In this document: positions 3,001 to 12,000 of the stretch, one piece after another
How positions within the stretch are numbered: position 1 is the stretch's first letter
Layout of the letters: each line of letters starts with the position of its first letter
From: Chrysemys picta bellii
Taxonomy: Eukaryota
Direction: 5' to 3'
Assembly: GCF_011386835.1 (NCBI RefSeq)
Contig: NC_088800.1
Location: 27,156,001 to 27,220,000 of the forward strand
DNA length: 64,000 nt
Program-made: the position numbers

Positions 3001-6000
3001 TATTTGATACCAAATTGTATCCTTGAGTCACCTTCCTTCTAGGAAATGTATTGCATATGGCACGCTATGAAAATGACCAAATTCTGAATAAATGTGGTAG
3101 ATATTTAGTCAATACCAGCCTCTACCTGAAAGTTCTCTCATAAATACAGACTTTTCAATATATCTTGCCATTTGTAATTACTTGCAGCAAGTGGTCCAAG
3201 GAAGTCTACTGCTGTAAACAGGGTTTGTTTGGGCTCATTACCGTCACATTGCTATCTTATGCATGCAAGTTGTATTGATGAACACGATACTATAGCCATT
3301 TTTGCTATCATGTAGGCTTCACGAGTTGAATTGTCTTCTAGTGCCAGTTCTTGATTTTTTGATCAATGCCACTTCAACAGAAGTTCAACACTGGTGTCTG
3401 GCAAGCCATTAAAGTTTAATGTATTCATAGACACTCTGGCAGCAGTGAGGATGAAAAAAAAGATATCACATGCAATGGGGTTAGAGAACAAAGCAGCCTT
3501 ATATAGCTATGAGCCAAGAAAAGCTCATGCTGCTCTTAAATTAGGTCTTGTCTACAGGAACATTTATTGCATTGCAAACAGGGGTATAAATCTACCCTGC
3601 AGTAAGTGTCTGTGTGGACCCTGCTCCCTCATGCTAAAAATTCTGAAACGCACTTCAATCTACCCTGTTTTGAAACTGGGAAGATAAAAGTGTCCGGCAG
3701 CAGAGTCCACAGAGTTAGTGCGCAGCAGGCGAGTGTAGGATAGATTTACACCCCAGCTTGCCAGACACAAGCCCGTAGATAGCCTTCTAGATTTGTCAAG
3801 GTTCTGATCTGCTTGCATTCTTTATTCTCTCCCCAACAGCAACAGTCAGAAAGAGAAAAAAGGGTAGGGATCCAATTGATTCTCCCGCCCTCCCCCTTGC
3901 AAATCTCTGATATTACTTAACATTAAGAATAACAGACCAAGGGAATGACAAGGGATTTATTACAGTTTCCACAGCCTTTCTTAGCTCAAGACCACCAGAG
4001 AATTTTTACCAGGGTACATATACGTACTGAAATCAGCCAGTGACAATACAGTCACCTAAAGTATGGCCTCAGTCCAGGTACTAGCGGGCAGATGTTCATA
4101 GTATAAAATTCTGAACATTTGACAAAAACTAAACATTCCATGGCAGTTTTAGTAAAGGAGTCAATGACTGAATTAACAGTAAGACTAAATTTATCAGCAG
4201 AATTTGTCCTAACCATACCTGGTTTAATCCACGGTAACAAAGCTGCATGGAAAAGTATGTCCTGACACTGCACATTTGCACCTTCCTCTAGCTAGAGAGA
4301 GACCTTCAGTCTTAAGAGCTGTCAACCTGACCCTTTTCAGAAGCACAAGATATACTGAGTGTCCCTGCTCAATTTTTCTGCAAAACATCCAAGATAGATC
4401 AGATAAGCAAGTAAAGGGACTAATAAATTTGGATTTCTTTTAAGACCATGTCTACAAATGAATGTGTTACCTTGCAGGATATAACTAATGTGATAAATAT
4501 GATTTTGCCCTGAGTAGGGACAAGGACAGTAATGTTTAAGTGTGTTAGCTGGTTGAATTTAGCTCAAGGGATAACTACAACCAACCAACATTTTTAAACA
4601 CAACTTGTTCCTATCTATCCTGGACCCTAAGATGTACTTAATGTAGTTAATTAGAAAGTTTTAAATGATGCATTTTTCCAAAAAACTAAGAATAAGGTAG
4701 TCTCATAGTTGCTGACTAAGAAAAAGTTAAAATTAGTGCTGAGTTAAAAAAATAACATAATATAGTTAGTGAAATTCCCATTAATTAATTGTTACTAGTA
4801 AAATTAGGGACATTCTAACAATATAAGTGAGATTAGACTTCAAGTGTCAAACAGTATACCTCATAGAAGATATTTCTAAAATAAAGCTTGCTAGCCTATC
4901 CATAAGTCTGAACAATTCAATAAGCATAATATAACAAATATACAATACCTGCAAAGTTTGTCTGGTTTTAACTTGCATTTCTTATCTTCTGGTTGATTTG
5001 CATCATAACAGCATTCATCTTTACACTGGTCACTGTATCCACAATCACACTGCTCTCCCTCTTCTACCATTCCATTACCACAGATGGGCTGGCCAGACTC
5101 TGAAAAATGTCAGTATATTTTTGTAACACTACAGAATATCAAAGACATGCATGGTAAAAGACGGTTACTCACCGTTGTAACTGTTGTTCTTCGAGATGTG
5201 TTGCTCATATCCATTCCATTAGGTGTGTGCGCGCCGCGTGCACGATCGTCGGAAGATTTTCTACCCTAGCAACACCGGCGGGTCGGCTGTGGAGCCCCCT
5301 AGAGTGGCGCCTTCATGGCGCTGAATATATACCCCAGCCGACCCGGCGCCCCCTCAGTTCCTTCTTGCCGGCTACTCCGACAGTGGGGACGGGGGGCGGG
5401 TTTGGAATGGATATGAGCAACACATCTCGAAGAACAACAGTTACAACGGTGAGTAACCGTCTTTTCTTCTTCGAGTGCTTGCTCATATCCATTCCATTAG
5501 GTGACTCCCAAGCCCAACTTAGGTGGTGGGGTCGGAGTGAGACATTGCTGTGTGCAAAACTGCTGATCCGAAGGCAGCATCGTCCCTGGACTGCTGCACT
5601 AGTGCATAGTGCGCTGTAAACGTGTGGACTGATGACCAAACCGCAGCTCTACAAATGTCCTGGATCGGAACTTGCGCCAGGAAAGCCGTCGAGGAAGCTT
5701 GGGCCCTCGTGGAGTGAGCGGTGAGGTGCGGTGCTGAGACACCTGCCAGGTCATAGCAAGTCCGGATGCAAGACGTAATCCAGGAGGATAGGCGTTGTGA
5801 GGAGACCGGTGAGCCTTTCATTCGGTCAGCCACTGCAACGAAGAGTTGCGTCGTCTTTCTAAAGTGCCTTGTGCGGTCAATATAGAAGGCCAGGGCCCTG
5901 CGTACGTCCAGAGAATGCAAACGTTGATCCTGGCGAGTGGCATGTGGTTTAGGATGAAAGACCGGGAGAAATATATCCTGGTTGATATGAAAAGGAGAAA

Positions 6001-9000: not shown

Positions 9001-12000
9001 TATAGCGGCTCAAGAGCGCCTGCTGGTTAGCCGCTCTAAGTTGCAGCCCTCCGGCTGAGTAAACTTTACGGCCGAATAAATCGAGGCGCTTAGCCTCCTT
9101 TGATTTGGGCGCTGCGGCCTGCTGACCGTGGCGCTCCCTTGCGTTCACTGATGCCACCACCAGTGAACACGGCTGGGGGTGGGTATACAAGTACCCGTAG
9201 TCTTTAGACGGGACAAAGTATTTCCTTTCCACCCCTCTCGCTGTGGGTGGGATAGAGGCAGGAGTCTGCCATATCGTAGAAGCATTGGCCTGTATCGTGC
9301 GGATCAGGGGTAACGCCACCCTCGATGGGGCATCCGCTCCGAGGATATTCACGATCGGGTCGTGCACCTCCACTATCTCCTCCGCCTGCAGGTCCATATT
9401 ACGGGCCATCCTGCGCAGAAGATCCTGGGGAGCCCGAAGATCTATTGGAGGTGGGCCTGTGCACGATGTGCCCACCACTGCCTCATCCGGAGAAGAAGAG
9501 GAAGATGCCTCCGGTGGAACAGGATCCAAGGGCTGGTCCTGGTCTCCCTGTTCCTGGGCCGGAGCATCACCTGCGCCTGGGTCCAGGGCGTCAGGTGGTG
9601 CGGACACAGAAGCCTCCATGCCCCCTGGCGGAGGCCGAGAAATGGTGGACTCCGGGGCCCTTCTGACGGAGTGACCGGAGCGAGAGGTCGAAGCAATTGG
9701 AGCCCCTTGCGCCTGATGGTACGCCCACGGGGTCCAAAACGACCAGTGAGATGGGCCATGAGAATGGTCCTCTGTCGTGTCCTGCCAATGTCCCAAGTCC
9801 TGTTCCTCGGCTTGCCCCTGAGGGGGGTATGCCGATCTCGAGAGGTCCTCCGAGGAGCGGGACACCGATCTCGATGGCCACGGCGGTGCAGAGAGCGTCG
9901 AGACGATTCCCGTGGGCTGCGGTGCCGCACGGTGCCGGTCCGGAGATGATCTATCTCTACGCGGTGCCGGCGATCGGTGCCGGGACCGCGACCGGTGCCG
10001 ATGACCTCGTCGGTGCCGGGAGTCGGATCTGGACCTCGACGAGGACCTGGAGTATGCCCGGTGCCGGGAGCGGCCTCTCGACGTCGAGCGTCGACCGTAG
10101 CGGTGCCGAGAACTACGTCTCGACGTTGATCGGTGCCGACGATCATAGCGGTGCCGAGACGTAGAGCGGTGCCGCGAAGAAGATCTTGGCCGCGAGTACG
10201 ACCGGTGCCGAGGCGATATTCGGCGCCGGGACTGCGAGCGGCGTGGGGACCTGCTTCGGGACCTGGATCGGTGCCGAGGTTCCAGCCCTTGCGATGGAGG
10301 GCGCATCAAGGCAGGTTTCCCCCTCGACTGGACCGGGCGAGTCAACGGTGCCGTCGGTGCCGGTGGTTGGGGTGGTGCCGGCTCCGTGAGAGCTATTAAG
10401 TCTCTCGCCGCCGCGAAGGTCTCTGGAGTCGACGGGAGGCACTGTATCACCGCCGGTCTCGGTGGAGACGCTATCTGCACCGGACTCAACGGCCTCGGCG
10501 CCGGAGTCGACGGTGCTGGAGGCACCTGTTTCCGGTGCTCCACCGGCGGACGCGGCTCTACCCCCGGCACTGGGGGAGCCGGCGTCTTCGGCACGGAGGT
10601 CCCCGTCTTATGGGCTTTTTTATGCCCCGGGGATAATGACCGGCGCCGAGGCACTTGCTGTGCTTGCGGTGCCGACGAGGTCCGGTGCCGGGGAGGCTTG
10701 TCCGACGCCACTCGCGTGGTCGTCGTGGCCGGTGCCGCCGGGGCACTGCGCACCGAGGCGCTAGGTGCCGGGGCCTGGCTTGTAGATGGAGCGTCCGGAC
10801 TAAGTGCCGCCTCCATCAGGAGTTGCCGGAGCCGAAAGTCCCGCTCCTTCTTGGTCCTTGGTCTGAAGGCCTTACAGATCTTGCACTTATCTGTTTGATG
10901 GGACTCTCCCAGGCACTTCAGACAGGAGTCGTGCGGGTTGCTCGTGGGCATAGGCTTAGCGCAGGAGGCGCACTGCTTGAAGCCGGGAGCGTTGGGCATG
11001 AGCCCGGCCCCGCGGCCGGGGGAGAAAGGGGGAGACGACCCCCTTAATCCCCTGAACTAGAATAACAACTAAAACAACTTTAAACTATTTAACTATAAAC
11101 ACTAGAACTACAACTATAACTATAACTGCGAATGTAACTAAGCTAGGGAGAGTGGAGAACAGCTAAGCAGCGCTCCACAGTTCCAACGACCGTCAGGGGC
11201 GGTAAGAAGGAACTGAGGGGGCGCCGGGTCGGCTGGGGTATATATTCAGCGCCATGAAGGCGCCACTCTAGGGGGCTCCACAGCCGACCCGCCGGTGTTG
11301 CTAGGGTAGAAAATCTTCCGACGATCGTGCACGCGGCGCGCACACACCTAATGGAATGGATATGAGCAAGCACTCGAAGAAGAACTTGTAGTTAAATTAT
11401 CATATGACATAGTTAAGCATGATTGCATCTTGAGTAGACATTGCCAATTAGTATTGGAAGTGTAGGTGTGTTGCAGATTAGGATTTTATAGGGAAACTTG
11501 AACAATACTCTTCAGCATCCAGTTTGTTGATTTCTACTACATATTTTGTTCTCATTTTGTATTCAGAACTTCCACTAATAACAATGGGAACTTCTTGTGC
11601 AAAAGAAAAGTTAGATCAGAGCTCAGTTAACTCTTTAGCATTTTATAAGGGTGACAAAAATACATACCAACAAAACAATTATTTCTTTTTTTCTCAAGAA
11701 CTTGGCTGATATTTCGAACGCTACAGAGGGAGAATTTATTGTTGTTAAGCTTGTCCCCAGATGTAGCTCTTGCATACATGATATAATTGCCATTTTCTTT
11801 CTGCCCCAAGTTTTTGGACTCTCCTGGAGTGCATTCCGTTCCAGAATCATGCTGCAAAACAGAACATTGTAAACTATTTCAAGCAGATCAGTTTCTATTG
11901 GTTAATTTGCTATCTTTCTACCTATGTGTATAACAGACCTGTGTGGGGTAATAGGGTGAGAAACAAAAGCTCATACAAAATTGTTGCCTTTTTAAAAAGT

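What the first reader, a model, noticed from the sequence alone, without database searches (positions are those of the whole stretch)
5156..11384. Young full-length DIRS1 element in sense orientation inside a small intron of ADAM10
Seen: the ITRs are 166/166 identical, CpGs are abundant compared with the flanks, and the YR ORF is intact. Removing the element leaves an intron of about 341 nt (6568-6227). The insert is 56 nt from the exon 11 acceptor and 283 nt from the exon 10 donor. Established: ADAM10 is the Notch alpha-secretase and is essential in mouse development. Inference: a recent, possibly polymorphic insertion that may affect splicing or expression.
Basis: partly seen in the sequence, partly recalled or inferred. 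Interest (0 to 1): 0.65.

Follow-up and report, generated by a model that had tools for sequence, protein, structure and literature searches.

The report
DIRS1 retrotransposon in turtle ADAM10 intron
A complete-looking copy of a well-known kind of jumping gene (DIRS1) lies inside a short intron of a turtle's ADAM10 gene; it arrived recently, one of its own genes is already broken, and nothing in the sequence shows harm to the host gene, so the finding is real but ordinary.

Summary
Window 5156-11384 (6229 nt, minus strand) is a textbook DIRS1-like tyrosine-recombinase retrotransposon. It has inverted terminal repeats with a 166/166 exact core and a 28-nt right extension. Its internal complementary region matches both termini perfectly (63/63 and 40/40), and there is no target-site duplication. 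It encodes a gag with a LAP2alpha-type domain, an RT-RNase H-(MT-like) pol and an open YR frame with all catalytic residues. Pol carries one premature in-frame stop, so this copy is not autonomous.

The element lies in sense orientation in a 6568-nt intron between two ADAM10 exons. It is 56 nt from the acceptor and 283 nt from the donor. Both exons and their GT/AG sites are intact.

The closest proteins are Chrysemys picta bellii models (95-98% identity), so the host is a turtle, not human. Three things support recency: CpG o/e of 0.82 against 0.22 in the flanks, 0 mismatches in 269 paired positions, and only one break. Given slow turtle clocks, the absolute age is only loosely bounded.

Polymorphism and any splicing effect could not be tested. 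No sequence sign of disruption was found. DIRS elements are abundant and catalogued in painted turtle, so this is a known kind and of low interest.

The parts
5156..11384 (-). Whole DIRS1-like element. It is 6229 nt, or 6227 nt if one terminal AA belongs to the target.
   Evidence: The bounds are the last bases complementary to the ICR. GC is 0.58 and CpG o/e 0.82.
11200..11384 (-). 5' (left) ITR in sense orientation. The outer 15 nt (11370-11384) are the 'divergent' part and 11204-11369 is the exact core.
11000..11199 (-). Leader between the ITR and the gag start. It is AT-rich and AGTT-rich.
   Evidence: read; no tool test
8549..10999 (-). ORF1 / gag, 816 aa and open. It has an N-terminal Cys/His cluster, an RS-rich middle (18-nt periodic repeat at 9972-10297) and a C-terminal LAP2alpha-type domain.
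   Evidence: LAP2alpha: Pfam E 0.015 for this copy; 5 of 10 relatives at E<=0.01; profile against 2v0x_A E 1e-7. It is 95% identical over 100% of its length to P0121.
6517..8667 (-). pol frame (RT, RNase H, MT-like), 717 codons. It is broken by one premature in-frame stop. No frameshift was seen.
   Evidence: RVT_1 E 1.2e-21. Dam-like E 0.0021, below the Pfam cut-off. Profile against Ty3 RT/RH E ~1.5e-35. 90 of 90 relatives that match both sides of the stop are uninterrupted.
5519..8380 (-). YR frame, 953 codons and open. The recombinase (core-binding plus catalytic domains) lies in about the last 375 codons (5519-6646). The upstream 579 codons overlap pol in another frame.
   Evidence: Overlap: 0 stops against 15.9 expected, 0 of 2000 shuffles. 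Cre/Tre profile hit E 5.5e-8. Catalytic R182, K214, H311, R314, W337 and Y347 are present.
5403..5503 (-). Internal complementary region. 5464-5503 is complementary to the element's 5' end (40/40) and 5403-5465 to its 3' end (63/63). The two halves overlap by 2 nt, which is the circular junction.
5184..5370 (-). 3' (right) ITR in sense orientation.
5156..5183 (-). Right extension (rE), 28 nt. It is absent from the other ITR but copied in the ICR.
5100..11667 (-). ADAM10 intron that holds the element (6568 nt, GT...AG).
11668..11851 (-). ADAM10 exon upstream of the element (184 nt), the end of the metalloprotease domain.
   Evidence: 8esv_A residues 187-248, E 4.9e-37, 60 of 62 aligned positions identical. 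Reprolysin_2 E 9.7e-6. Acceptor read.
4949..5099 (-). ADAM10 exon downstream of the element (151 nt), the start of the disintegrin domain.
   Evidence: 2ao7_A E 8.3e-25, 44 of 49 identical; 8esv_A residues 250-298. Disintegrin E 1e-4.
13767..14084 (-). Open segment holding the preceding ADAM10 exon, which carries the HExxH zinc site.
   Evidence: 8esv_A residues 130-188, E 1.4e-32; Reprolysin_2 E 5.8e-10
1627..1920 (-). Open segment holding the next ADAM10 exon (disintegrin domain, continued).
   Evidence: 8esv_A residues 298-360, E 1.9e-34; Disintegrin E 1.7e-5

Best explanation
This is one copy of a DIRS1-like tyrosine-recombinase retrotransposon of emydid-type turtles. It is inserted in the same orientation as ADAM10, in the short intron between the last metalloprotease exon and the first disintegrin exon.

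How it got there is inferred from the anatomy together with the published DIRS-1 model. A subgenomic transcript of a parent copy was reverse-transcribed. Most of one ITR was rebuilt from the other, which is why the 166-nt cores are identical. The differing outer ends were rebuilt on the internal complementary region, which is why the ICR matches both termini perfectly. The joined ends formed a circle junction. The element's tyrosine recombinase then crossed that junction with an AA in the intron. This leaves an AA at each end and no target-site duplication.

The insertion is recent relative to everything else in the window. This copy cannot make its own full pol, because there is one premature stop. 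It is therefore either a decaying copy or one that was copied from a defective parent with proteins supplied by other copies.

For the host it is most likely a tolerated intronic passenger that lengthened the intron from about 0.34 kb to 6.6 kb.

Shown here: the anatomy, the domains, the orientation, the position, the intact host exons and the relative youth. Inferred: the replication route, the AA target and the neutrality for ADAM10.
For: Anatomy:
- ITR core is 166/166.
- ICR halves are 63/63 and 40/40 with a 2-nt overlap.
- A 17-nt block is present four times, in both ITRs and both ICR halves, with 0 expected by chance.
- The rE is 28 nt.
- No flanking direct repeat is seen.
- These sizes match the scheme and Table 3 of PMC3266345 (passages): AcDIRS2 has ICR 39-60 and rE 28; XtDIRS3 has ICR 41-65 and rE 34.

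Genes:
- RVT_1 E 1.2e-21.
- The pol profile hits Ty3 RT/RH at E ~1.5e-35.
- The YR profile hits Cre/Tre at E 5.5e-8.
- The catalytic R, K, H, R, W and Y are present and kept in 21-24 of 24 aligned relatives.
- The gag profile hits LAP2alpha 2v0x_A at E 1e-7, as PMC4495291 describes for painted-turtle DIRS1 (passages).
- The 579-codon pol/YR overlap has 0 stops against 15.9 expected, in 0 of 2000 shuffles. This is a known DIRS1 trait.

Host taxon:
- gag is 95% identical over 100% of its length to a C. picta bellii protein, and 13 of the 15 gag hits are turtle proteins.
- All 10 named proteins among the 12 best RT hits are from turtles.

Host gene:
- Four successive minus-strand exons match ADAM10 chain 8esv_A residues 130-188, 187-248, 250-298 and 298-360.

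Youth:
- 0 of 269 paired positions are mismatched, although they include 38 CpG.
- CpG o/e is 0.82, against 0.33 in an old DIRS-like remnant in the same window and 0.22 in the flanks.
- There is only one break across the three genes.

Replication model:
- Passages of PMC7192593 report that the ICR is essential and that the RT acts in trans.
Against: - There are no population or cross-species data, so 'recent' rests on internal evidence only.
- Zero mismatches in 269 pairs bounds divergence only at about 0.006 per site. [quoted passage not shown]
- The closest annotated relatives are 95-98% identical, not near-identical. No sister copy therefore proves very recent activity.
- The two ICR halves overlap by 2 nt, not the 3 nt usually described.
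- The MT-like domain is only weakly detected, at 18.2 bits against a cut-off of 28.1.
- Neutrality for ADAM10 is an inference. The element is in sense orientation and close to the acceptor, and it carries one GGTGAGT on the sense strand near its 3' end.
Confidence: 0.88

Rival explanations
1. The insertion measurably disturbs ADAM10. Sitting in sense orientation 56 nt from the acceptor, it could cause exon skipping, exonisation of element sequence, premature transcript ends or lower expression.
For: The element is in sense orientation and close to the acceptor. One donor-like GGTGAGT lies on the sense strand at 5167-5173. Gene models that fuse DIRS frames to host genes exist in other reptiles: rows named RAD51 homolog 2, inositol hexakisphosphate kinase 3 and cyclin-B appear.
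Against: Both flanking exons are open, and donor GT and acceptor AG are canonical. 56 nt with branch-point-like motifs remain between the element and the acceptor (read). The sense strand has no AATAAA or ATTAAA and no full AGGTRAGT inside the element. None of the 255 listed relatives carries an ADAM10 name. Other introns of the gene in this window are already 2-9 kb and hold repeats.
Confidence: 0.12
2. The insertion is old and fixed. Its clean ends reflect the very slow turtle clock or gene conversion between the repeats, not recent arrival.
For: Turtle genomes evolve slowly (PMC4054807 passage). The bound from 0 of 269 mismatches is loose. Pol already carries a stop.
Against: CpG o/e is 0.82, with TpG+CpA at 1.05. 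That is far from the decayed state of the old DIRS-like remnant (0.33 and 1.26) and of the flanks in the same window. Gene conversion would not protect the 427 CpG spread over the whole 6.2 kb. gag and YR are both fully open.
Confidence: 0.15
3. Assembly artefact: a DIRS copy from elsewhere was placed in this intron by mis-assembly.
For: DIRS is an abundant repeat in painted turtle (PMC5438563 passage), and repeats are error-prone in assemblies.
Against: There are no N runs in the window. Both junctions fall exactly at the termini predicted by the element's own ICR. The flanks continue as one intron with matching exon phases.
Confidence: 0.03
4. It belongs to another class: a Ngaro or PAT element, or a Ty3/Gypsy LTR retrotransposon.
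For: The RT/RH resembles Ty3. All YR retroelements share RT, RH and YR.
Against: The terminal repeats are inverted, not direct or split-direct. The only direct-repeat family found lies inside gag. An ICR is present. Pfam detects no DDE integrase or protease.
Confidence: 0.01

Closest known systems
DIRS1-like elements of the western painted turtle with a LAP2alpha-type gag (Abascal et al. 2015, PMC4495291; NCBI models from Chrysemys picta bellii, here P0121 and P0124)
   Same: gag is 95% identical over its full length to P0121. The pol stretches on either side of the stop are 95.6% and 97.7% identical to P0124. The gene order is gag, RT, RNase H, YR, with ITRs, as the paper describes (passages).
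   Different: This copy has one stop in pol, where P0124 and 89 other relatives read through. Its location in ADAM10 is specific to this copy. Whether it equals a named Repbase family could not be checked; DIRS-5_CBP is named in PMC9210276.
AcDIRS2 (Anolis carolinensis) and XtDIRS3 (Xenopus tropicalis) as annotated in Piednoel et al. 2011, PMC3266345, Table 3
   Same: Size is about 6 kb. ICR halves are 39-60 and 41-65 nt, against 40-63 here. The rE is 28 and 34 nt, against 28 here. All have T-rich termini, an A-rich junction and a long pol/YR overlap.
   Different: The conserved ITR is longer here (166 nt against 136 and 123). The perfect junction overlap is 2 nt rather than 3. Only the published table was compared, not the sequences.
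DIRS-1 of Dictyostelium discoideum
   Same: Both have non-identical inverted terminal repeats whose outer ends are repeated side by side in an ICR next to the right repeat. Both encode a YR instead of a DDE integrase (passages of PMC7192593).
   Different: DIRS-1 is 4.8 kb with an ICR of 33+55 nt. Its YR ORF is listed as the second ORF, before pol (PMC3266345 background), whereas here the YR domain lies after pol.
Ty3/Gypsy LTR retrotransposons
   Same: The RT and RNase H are similar. The pol profile hits Ty3 chains 7q5b_A and 4ol8_A at E ~1.5e-35.
   Different: There are no direct LTRs. No protease or DDE integrase is detected. There is a YR and no target-site duplication.
LAP2alpha domain of mammalian TMPO (PDB 2v0x)
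   Same: The gag C-terminal domain matches it. The profile E is 1e-7 over 195 of 235 chain residues.
   Different: Here the domain is still part of a transposon gag, with an RS-rich region and an N-terminal Cys/His cluster. It is not a host protein.

Membership tests
DIRS1-like retrotransposons (order DIRS) | Inverted terminal repeats with a strictly complementary core and short divergent outer parts | tested here: met
   The core is 166/166. The arms give 182 identities in 185 aligned columns plus 2 gaps, with the differences at the edges.
DIRS1-like retrotransposons (order DIRS) | Internal complementary region next to the right ITR, made of two adjacent halves complementary to the two termini and overlapping at a circular junction | tested here: met
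   5464-5503 is 40/40 and 5403-5465 is 63/63. The overlap is 2 nt (AA/TT), where 3 bp is the usual description.
DIRS1-like retrotransposons (order DIRS) | Terminal extension present at one end only and mirrored in the ICR | tested here: met
   The 28-nt rE at 5156-5183 is absent from the other arm and lies inside the 63-nt ICR match.
DIRS1-like retrotransposons (order DIRS) | Short block shared by both ITRs and both ICR halves | tested here: met
   There are four exact copies of a 17-mer, two per strand, against 0 expected.
DIRS1-like retrotransposons (order DIRS) | No target-site duplication | tested here: met
   No direct repeat flanks the element. Only the AA of the junction stands at each end (read).
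DIRS1-like retrotransposons (order DIRS) | Reverse transcriptase and RNase H of the Ty3/Gypsy-related type | tested here: met
   RVT_1 E 1.2e-21. The profile covers RT plus RH of Ty3 at E ~1.5e-35. In this copy the frame has one stop.
DIRS1-like retrotransposons (order DIRS) | Methyltransferase-like domain after RNase H | tested here: inconclusive
   Pfam Dam E 0.0021, 18.2 bits against a cut-off of 28.1. PF05869 is precomputed on 3 of the 120 listed relatives. No Dam-type chain is among the 60 PDB rows shown of 214.
DIRS1-like retrotransposons (order DIRS) | Tyrosine recombinase with the R-K-H-R-(H/W)-Y catalytic set, and no DDE integrase | tested here: met
   Phage_integrase E 9.3e-4 and SAM-like E 2.3e-3, both below the Pfam cut-offs. 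The profile hits Cre/Tre at E 5.5e-8. R182, K214, H311, R314, W337 and Y347 are present, and each column is kept in 21-24 of 24 sequences. There is no integrase or protease family hit.
DIRS1-like retrotransposons (order DIRS) | ORF1 (gag) with the LAP2alpha-type domain of vertebrate DIRS1 | tested here: met
   2v0x_A E 1e-7 with a profile of 10 sequences. 5 of 10 members match Pfam LAP2alpha. This copy alone gives E 0.015.
Ngaro / PAT-like YR retrotransposons | Split direct terminal repeats | tested here: not met
   The only direct-repeat family lies inside gag.
LTR retrotransposons (Ty3/Gypsy) | Direct LTRs, DDE integrase, target-site duplication | tested here: not met
   flanks read
ADAM10 (host gene) | Exon translations match ADAM10 better than other ADAMs and are collinear along the protein | tested here: met
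   ADAM10 chains score E 8e-25 to 5e-37, against ADAM17 at about 1e-7. Chain 8esv_A is covered at 130-188, 187-248, 250-298 and 298-360 by four successive minus-strand segments. The exons were searched one at a time.
ADAM10 (host gene) | Exon numbers 10 and 11 | tested here: inconclusive
   375 of the 378 minus-strand open segments of 36 aa or more were scanned with Pfam. ADAM-type hits appeared in 5 segments only, none upstream of 22781. Exons could therefore not be counted from exon 1.

The most novel reading that the evidence does not exclude
The copy is a still-segregating insertion from a DIRS1 lineage that is active today in a slowly evolving turtle genome. Because it lies in sense orientation next to an acceptor of an essential gene, it would yield ADAM10-DIRS chimeric or shortened transcripts. 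That would be a live example of the route by which a DIRS1 gag once became the LAP2alpha domain of mammals.
Probability: 0.06. Interest if true: 0.5.

Novelty: already known. Interest (0 to 1): 0.15.

Why it matters
It matters little beyond annotation.
- It is a clean, nearly undecayed reference copy that shows every structural hallmark of DIRS1 elements in a turtle.
- It shows that the family was active recently in a lineage known for slow genome evolution.
- It is a reminder that its gag is annotated in public protein sets as a host gene ('serine/arginine repetitive matrix protein 2-like').
- If population data showed the insertion to be polymorphic, it would be a convenient natural case for asking how a 6-kb sense-oriented insertion beside an acceptor of an essential gene is tolerated.

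Tried and rejected
1. Reading the pol frame through its stop in the large protein search was not accepted. The two stretches were searched and compared apart instead.
No fold search was run. The YR assignment rests on sequence profiles and catalytic columns.
3. The gag N-terminal Cys/His cluster gave nothing firm. Pfam gave only DZR at E 0.94. The Atlas did not hold the window's protein. With the homologue P0121, residues 1-75, the best score was 0.85, with zinc-knuckle clusters further down. These are leads only.
4. I looked for a self-priming hairpin at the 3' end of the sense strand. 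The MFE was -10.7 kcal/mol with z = +1.30, and 181 of 200 shuffles folded at least as well. Rejected.
5. Rfam at gathering scores gave 0 matches in the window.
6. The sense strand of the element has no AATAAA or ATTAAA. About one would be expected by chance (my estimate), so this is not significant.
7. Splice-donor consensus: no AGGTRAGT lies inside the element, and one GGTGAGT lies on its sense strand.
8. The exon count from exon 1 failed. Pfam did not detect exons upstream of 22781.
9. Other copies in the window: blastn of the element against the flanks gave no hit. Only an old protein-level remnant was found.
10. Not searched:
- The bacterial/archaeal genome collection and the phage, plasmid and E. 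coli collections, because they are irrelevant to a turtle locus.
- The viral and metagenome contig collections, because they were closed. The orthologous intron in other turtles and other genomic copies of the family therefore stayed unchecked.
- Supplementary files of papers, which were closed and not requested. Repeat tables of PMC4054807 and the appendices of PMC4495291 and PMC3266345 may name this family.

Full report
OBSERVATION

The window has no N. Between 5156 and 11384 the composition changes sharply. GC is 0.50-0.67 inside, against 0.30-0.44 beside it. Per-kb CpG o/e is 0.55-1.09 inside, against mostly 0.03-0.37 outside. For the whole element CpG o/e is 0.82 (427 CpG), against 0.22 for the rest of the window.

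The repeat search gives three inverted pairs:
- 5201-5370 with 11200-11369 (170 nt, 99%);
- 5156-5218 with 5403-5465 (63 nt, 100%);
- 5464-5503 with 11345-11384 (40 nt, 100%).

My alignment of the two ends shows that the longest exact run is 166 nt (5201-5366 with 11369-11204). The whole arms, 5184-5370 and 11384-11200, have 182 identities in 185 aligned columns plus two one-base gaps, and the differences lie at the outer and innermost edges.

All long open frames lie on the minus strand. Outside the element the window has only four ORFs of 130 aa or more.

ANATOMY, READ IN SENSE (MINUS) ORIENTATION

1. 5' ITR, 11384-11200.
2. An AT-rich, AGTT-rich leader, 11199-11000 (read).
3. gag, 10999-8549. 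It is 816 aa, starts with ATG and is open.
4. pol frame, 8667-6517, 717 codons.
5. A third frame open from 8380 to 5519, 953 codons. Its last ~375 codons are the recombinase.
6. The internal complementary region, 5503-5403.
7. 3' ITR, 5370-5184.
8. A 28-nt extension, 5183-5156, which the other ITR lacks.

The ICR is made of two adjacent halves. One is complementary to the element's first 40 nt and the other to its last 63 nt, extension included. They overlap by 2 nt. A 17-nt block occurs exactly four times, once in each ITR and once in each ICR half; none is expected by chance. No direct repeat flanks the element. Each end carries the AA of the junction.

This is point for point the 'lITR, lICR-rICR, rITR-rE' layout described for DIRS1-like elements in PMC3266345 (passages). 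The sizes are close to the reptile and frog entries of its Table 3: AcDIRS2 has ICR 39-60 and rE 28, and XtDIRS3 has ICR 41-65 and rE 34. Two things differ here. The conserved ITR is longer (166 nt), and the perfect overlap is 2 nt rather than 3. That table also lists elements whose first and last trinucleotides differ.

GENES

pol:
- It matches RVT_1 at E 1.2e-21.
- A profile of the downstream stretch with 14 relatives hits a caulimovirus-type polyprotein (8r0s_A, E 1.4e-36) and Ty3 RT/RNase H (7q5b_A and 4ol8_A, E ~1.5e-35) across RT and RNase H.
- The methyltransferase-like domain is weak. Dam scores E 0.0021, below the cut-off, and no Dam-type chain is among the 60 rows shown of 214.
- The pol frame is broken once, by a premature in-frame stop, and I saw no frameshift.
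- This is a break and not a family trait. Of 135 stored relatives, 123 match the upstream stretch and 90 match both stretches. In all 90 the two matches are collinear within one uninterrupted protein.
- The closest relative, P0124 from Chrysemys picta bellii, is 95.6% and 97.7% identical to the two stretches. It aligns inside the element in 2 pieces covering 992 of its 1034 residues.

YR:
- Pfam matches are below cut-off: Phage_integrase E 9.3e-4 and SAM-like E 2.3e-3.
- A profile of 24 sequences hits Tre/Cre recombinase at E 5.5e-8, in both the core-binding and the catalytic parts.
- The window's protein has R182, E185, K214, H311, R314, W337 and Y347 in columns kept by 21-24 of the 24 sequences.
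- It is 75% identical to P0136 (Gopherus flavomarginatus), with one gap.
- A structure model could not be made.
- Upstream of the recombinase, this frame overlaps pol for 579 codons without a stop. Codon-order shuffles of pol give 15.9 stops on average and never zero (0 of 2000). The other alternative frame has 24 stops.
- Long pol/YR overlaps are a described DIRS1 trait, found in half of 28 annotated elements.
- Turtle relatives such as P0144 align over 550 residues in that frame.

gag:
- It has no Pfam family above threshold. Its C-terminal part gives LAP2alpha at E 0.015.
- 5 of 10 aligned relatives match LAP2alpha at E<=0.01.
- Their profile hits the LAP2alpha structure 2v0x_A at E 1e-7.
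- This is the relation reported by Abascal et al. (PMC4495291, passages). They found 792 such regions in the painted turtle genome, with DIRS1-type RT and RNase H downstream and ITRs.
- The domain is widespread: 1413 representative clusters at E<=1e-3, 738 at 1e-10 and 158 at 1e-30.
- The middle of gag is RS-rich and is encoded by an 18-nt periodic repeat.

HOST AND TAXON

I do not take this window for human, for three reasons:
- DIRS elements leave no trace in the human genome except two domesticated domains (PMC5753468 passage). They are absent from mammals, birds and alligator (PMC4350176 passage).
- The element's closest proteins are from turtles. gag is 95% identical over 100% of its length to a C. 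picta bellii protein, and 13 of the 15 gag hits are turtle proteins. All 10 named proteins among the 12 best RT hits are from turtles.
- The downstream ADAM10 exon differs at 5 of 49 residues from the ADAM10 chains shown.

The species itself was not established. The large searches scored only the 8000 candidates sharing the most words and covered limited length ranges.

ADAM10 EXONS

The exons were searched one at a time.

Four successive minus-strand segments match ADAM10 chain 8esv_A:
- residues 130-188 (13767-14084, E 1.4e-32);
- residues 187-248 (exon 11668-11851, E 4.9e-37, 60 of 62 identical);
- residues 250-298 (exon 4949-5099; 2ao7_A E 8.3e-25, 44 of 49 identical);
- residues 298-360 (1627-1920, E 1.9e-34).

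ADAM17 chains score only about 1e-7.

A Pfam scan covered 375 of the 378 minus-strand open segments of 36 aa or more; the 3 that overlap the element were left out. It found ADAM-type domains in five segments, the four above plus 22593-22781, and none further upstream. The numbers '10' and '11' therefore remain unverified.

The intron runs from 5100 to 11667 (6568 nt, GT...AG). The element starts 56 nt from the acceptor and ends 283 nt from the donor. Element and gene share the strand, so 'sense orientation' is right.

HOW IT WORKS

The anatomy fits the Cappello model as summarised and tested in Dictyostelium (PMC7192593, passages):
1. A subgenomic transcript is reverse-transcribed.
2. Most of the left repeat is restored from the right one.
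3. The outer ends are restored on the ICR.
4. The joined ends form a circle junction.
5. The YR recombines that junction with an identical short sequence in the target, without a target-site duplication.

In that work the ICR was essential and the RT acted in trans.

Applied here, this is inference. The identical 166-nt cores and the perfect ICR-terminus matches are what a single recent round of this process leaves. The target was an AA in the intron. The stop in pol either arose after insertion or was inherited from a defective parent copied with proteins from other copies.

AGE

All 269 paired positions (166 + 63 + 40) match, although they include 38 CpG. In the same window an old DIRS-like remnant (54902-56201) has CpG o/e 0.33 and TpG+CpA o/e 1.26, against 0.82 and 1.05 for this copy.

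Zero mismatches in 269 pairs bounds divergence at roughly 0.006 per site (my calculation). [quoted passage not shown] On those figures the upper bound is of the order of ten to thirty million years. It is tighter if CpG hypermutability is counted.

So the copy is young relative to the other repeats. The sequence alone cannot say whether it is polymorphic.

EFFECT ON ADAM10

Nothing in the sequence points to damage:
- The exons are intact and the splice sites canonical.
- Branch-point-like motifs remain within the 56 nt next to the acceptor (read).
- The sense strand of the element has no AATAAA or ATTAAA and no full donor consensus.
- One GGTGAGT lies on the sense strand at 5167-5173.
- None of the 255 listed relatives is named ADAM10, though fused DIRS-host gene models exist for other genes in other reptiles.

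That ADAM10 is the Notch alpha-secretase and is essential in mouse is recalled, not checked here.

COMPARISON AND VERDICT

Every defining DIRS1 feature that I could test is met, except the MT-like domain, which is inconclusive. Ngaro/PAT and LTR classes are excluded by the inverted repeats.

DIRS is among the most abundant repeat classes of the painted turtle (PMC5438563 passage). Repbase holds DIRS families from it; DIRS-5_CBP is named in PMC9210276. A full-text search for DIRS plus Chrysemys found 11 papers. None that I read (passages only) mentions ADAM10.

For all papers I saw search listings and the quoted passages only. No supplements were seen.

Noticed in passing
window 54902-56201, minus strand: An old DIRS-like remnant covering RNase H/MT-like and YR parts. 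It gave 14 tblastn pieces in 3 frames, the best about 31% identical to a turtle YR protein. CpG o/e is 0.33. It has the same orientation as ADAM10. Pfam saw nothing in its open segments.
   Followed up: partly
window 49530-50147, plus strand: A reverse-transcriptase remnant. The ORF 49695-50108 matches RVT_1 at E 9.4e-18. It is only about 25% identical to DIRS pol relatives, so it probably comes from another retroelement class.
   Followed up: partly
window 15919-16185, minus strand: A short RVT_1 fragment (E 5.7e-8) in the intron upstream of the zinc-site exon. Its class was not determined.
   Followed up: no
window 8549-10999; proteins P0121, P0123, P0125, P0129, P0131, P0006, P0174, P0185, P0232: Public annotations name this transposon's gag 'serine/arginine repetitive matrix protein 2-like' in Chrysemys and Gopherus. 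Several reptile gene models fuse DIRS frames to host gene names (RAD51 homolog 2, inositol hexakisphosphate kinase 3, cyclin-B, EEPD1). These are likely annotation artefacts or exonisations.
   Followed up: partly
window 9972-10297, minus strand (inside gag): An 18-nt periodic repeat, seen as 7 copies of a 50-nt unit at 60-72% identity and as a TRF array of period 18. It encodes the arginine/serine-rich middle of gag. Its role is unknown.
   Followed up: no
window about 10865-10999, minus strand (first ~45 codons of gag): A Cys/His-rich cluster at the gag N-terminus. No Pfam family matches (DZR E 0.94). Atlas look-alikes of the homologue P0121 include zinc-knuckle clusters, but all score below 0.9, so they are leads only.
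   Followed up: partly
window 11000-11199, minus strand: The leader between the 5' ITR and the gag start is AT-rich, with many AGTT-type short repeats. This is unlike the GC-rich rest of the element (read).
   Followed up: no
window 5167-5173, minus strand: A donor-like GGTGAGT on the sense strand inside the element's 28-nt 3' extension, 68 nt upstream of the ADAM10 exon. Its mirror copy lies in the ICR at 5448-5454 on the other strand.
   Followed up: no
window 38175-38416: A C-rich tandem array with periods of 31-72 nt and 3-6 copies. It lies inside a 187-aa minus-strand ORF that has no Pfam match.
   Followed up: no
window 17870-18481: A GC-rich patch (GC 0.54, GC skew 0.24) with ORFs of 203 aa (plus strand) and 138 aa (minus strand) and no Pfam match. 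It is probably another repeat.
   Followed up: no
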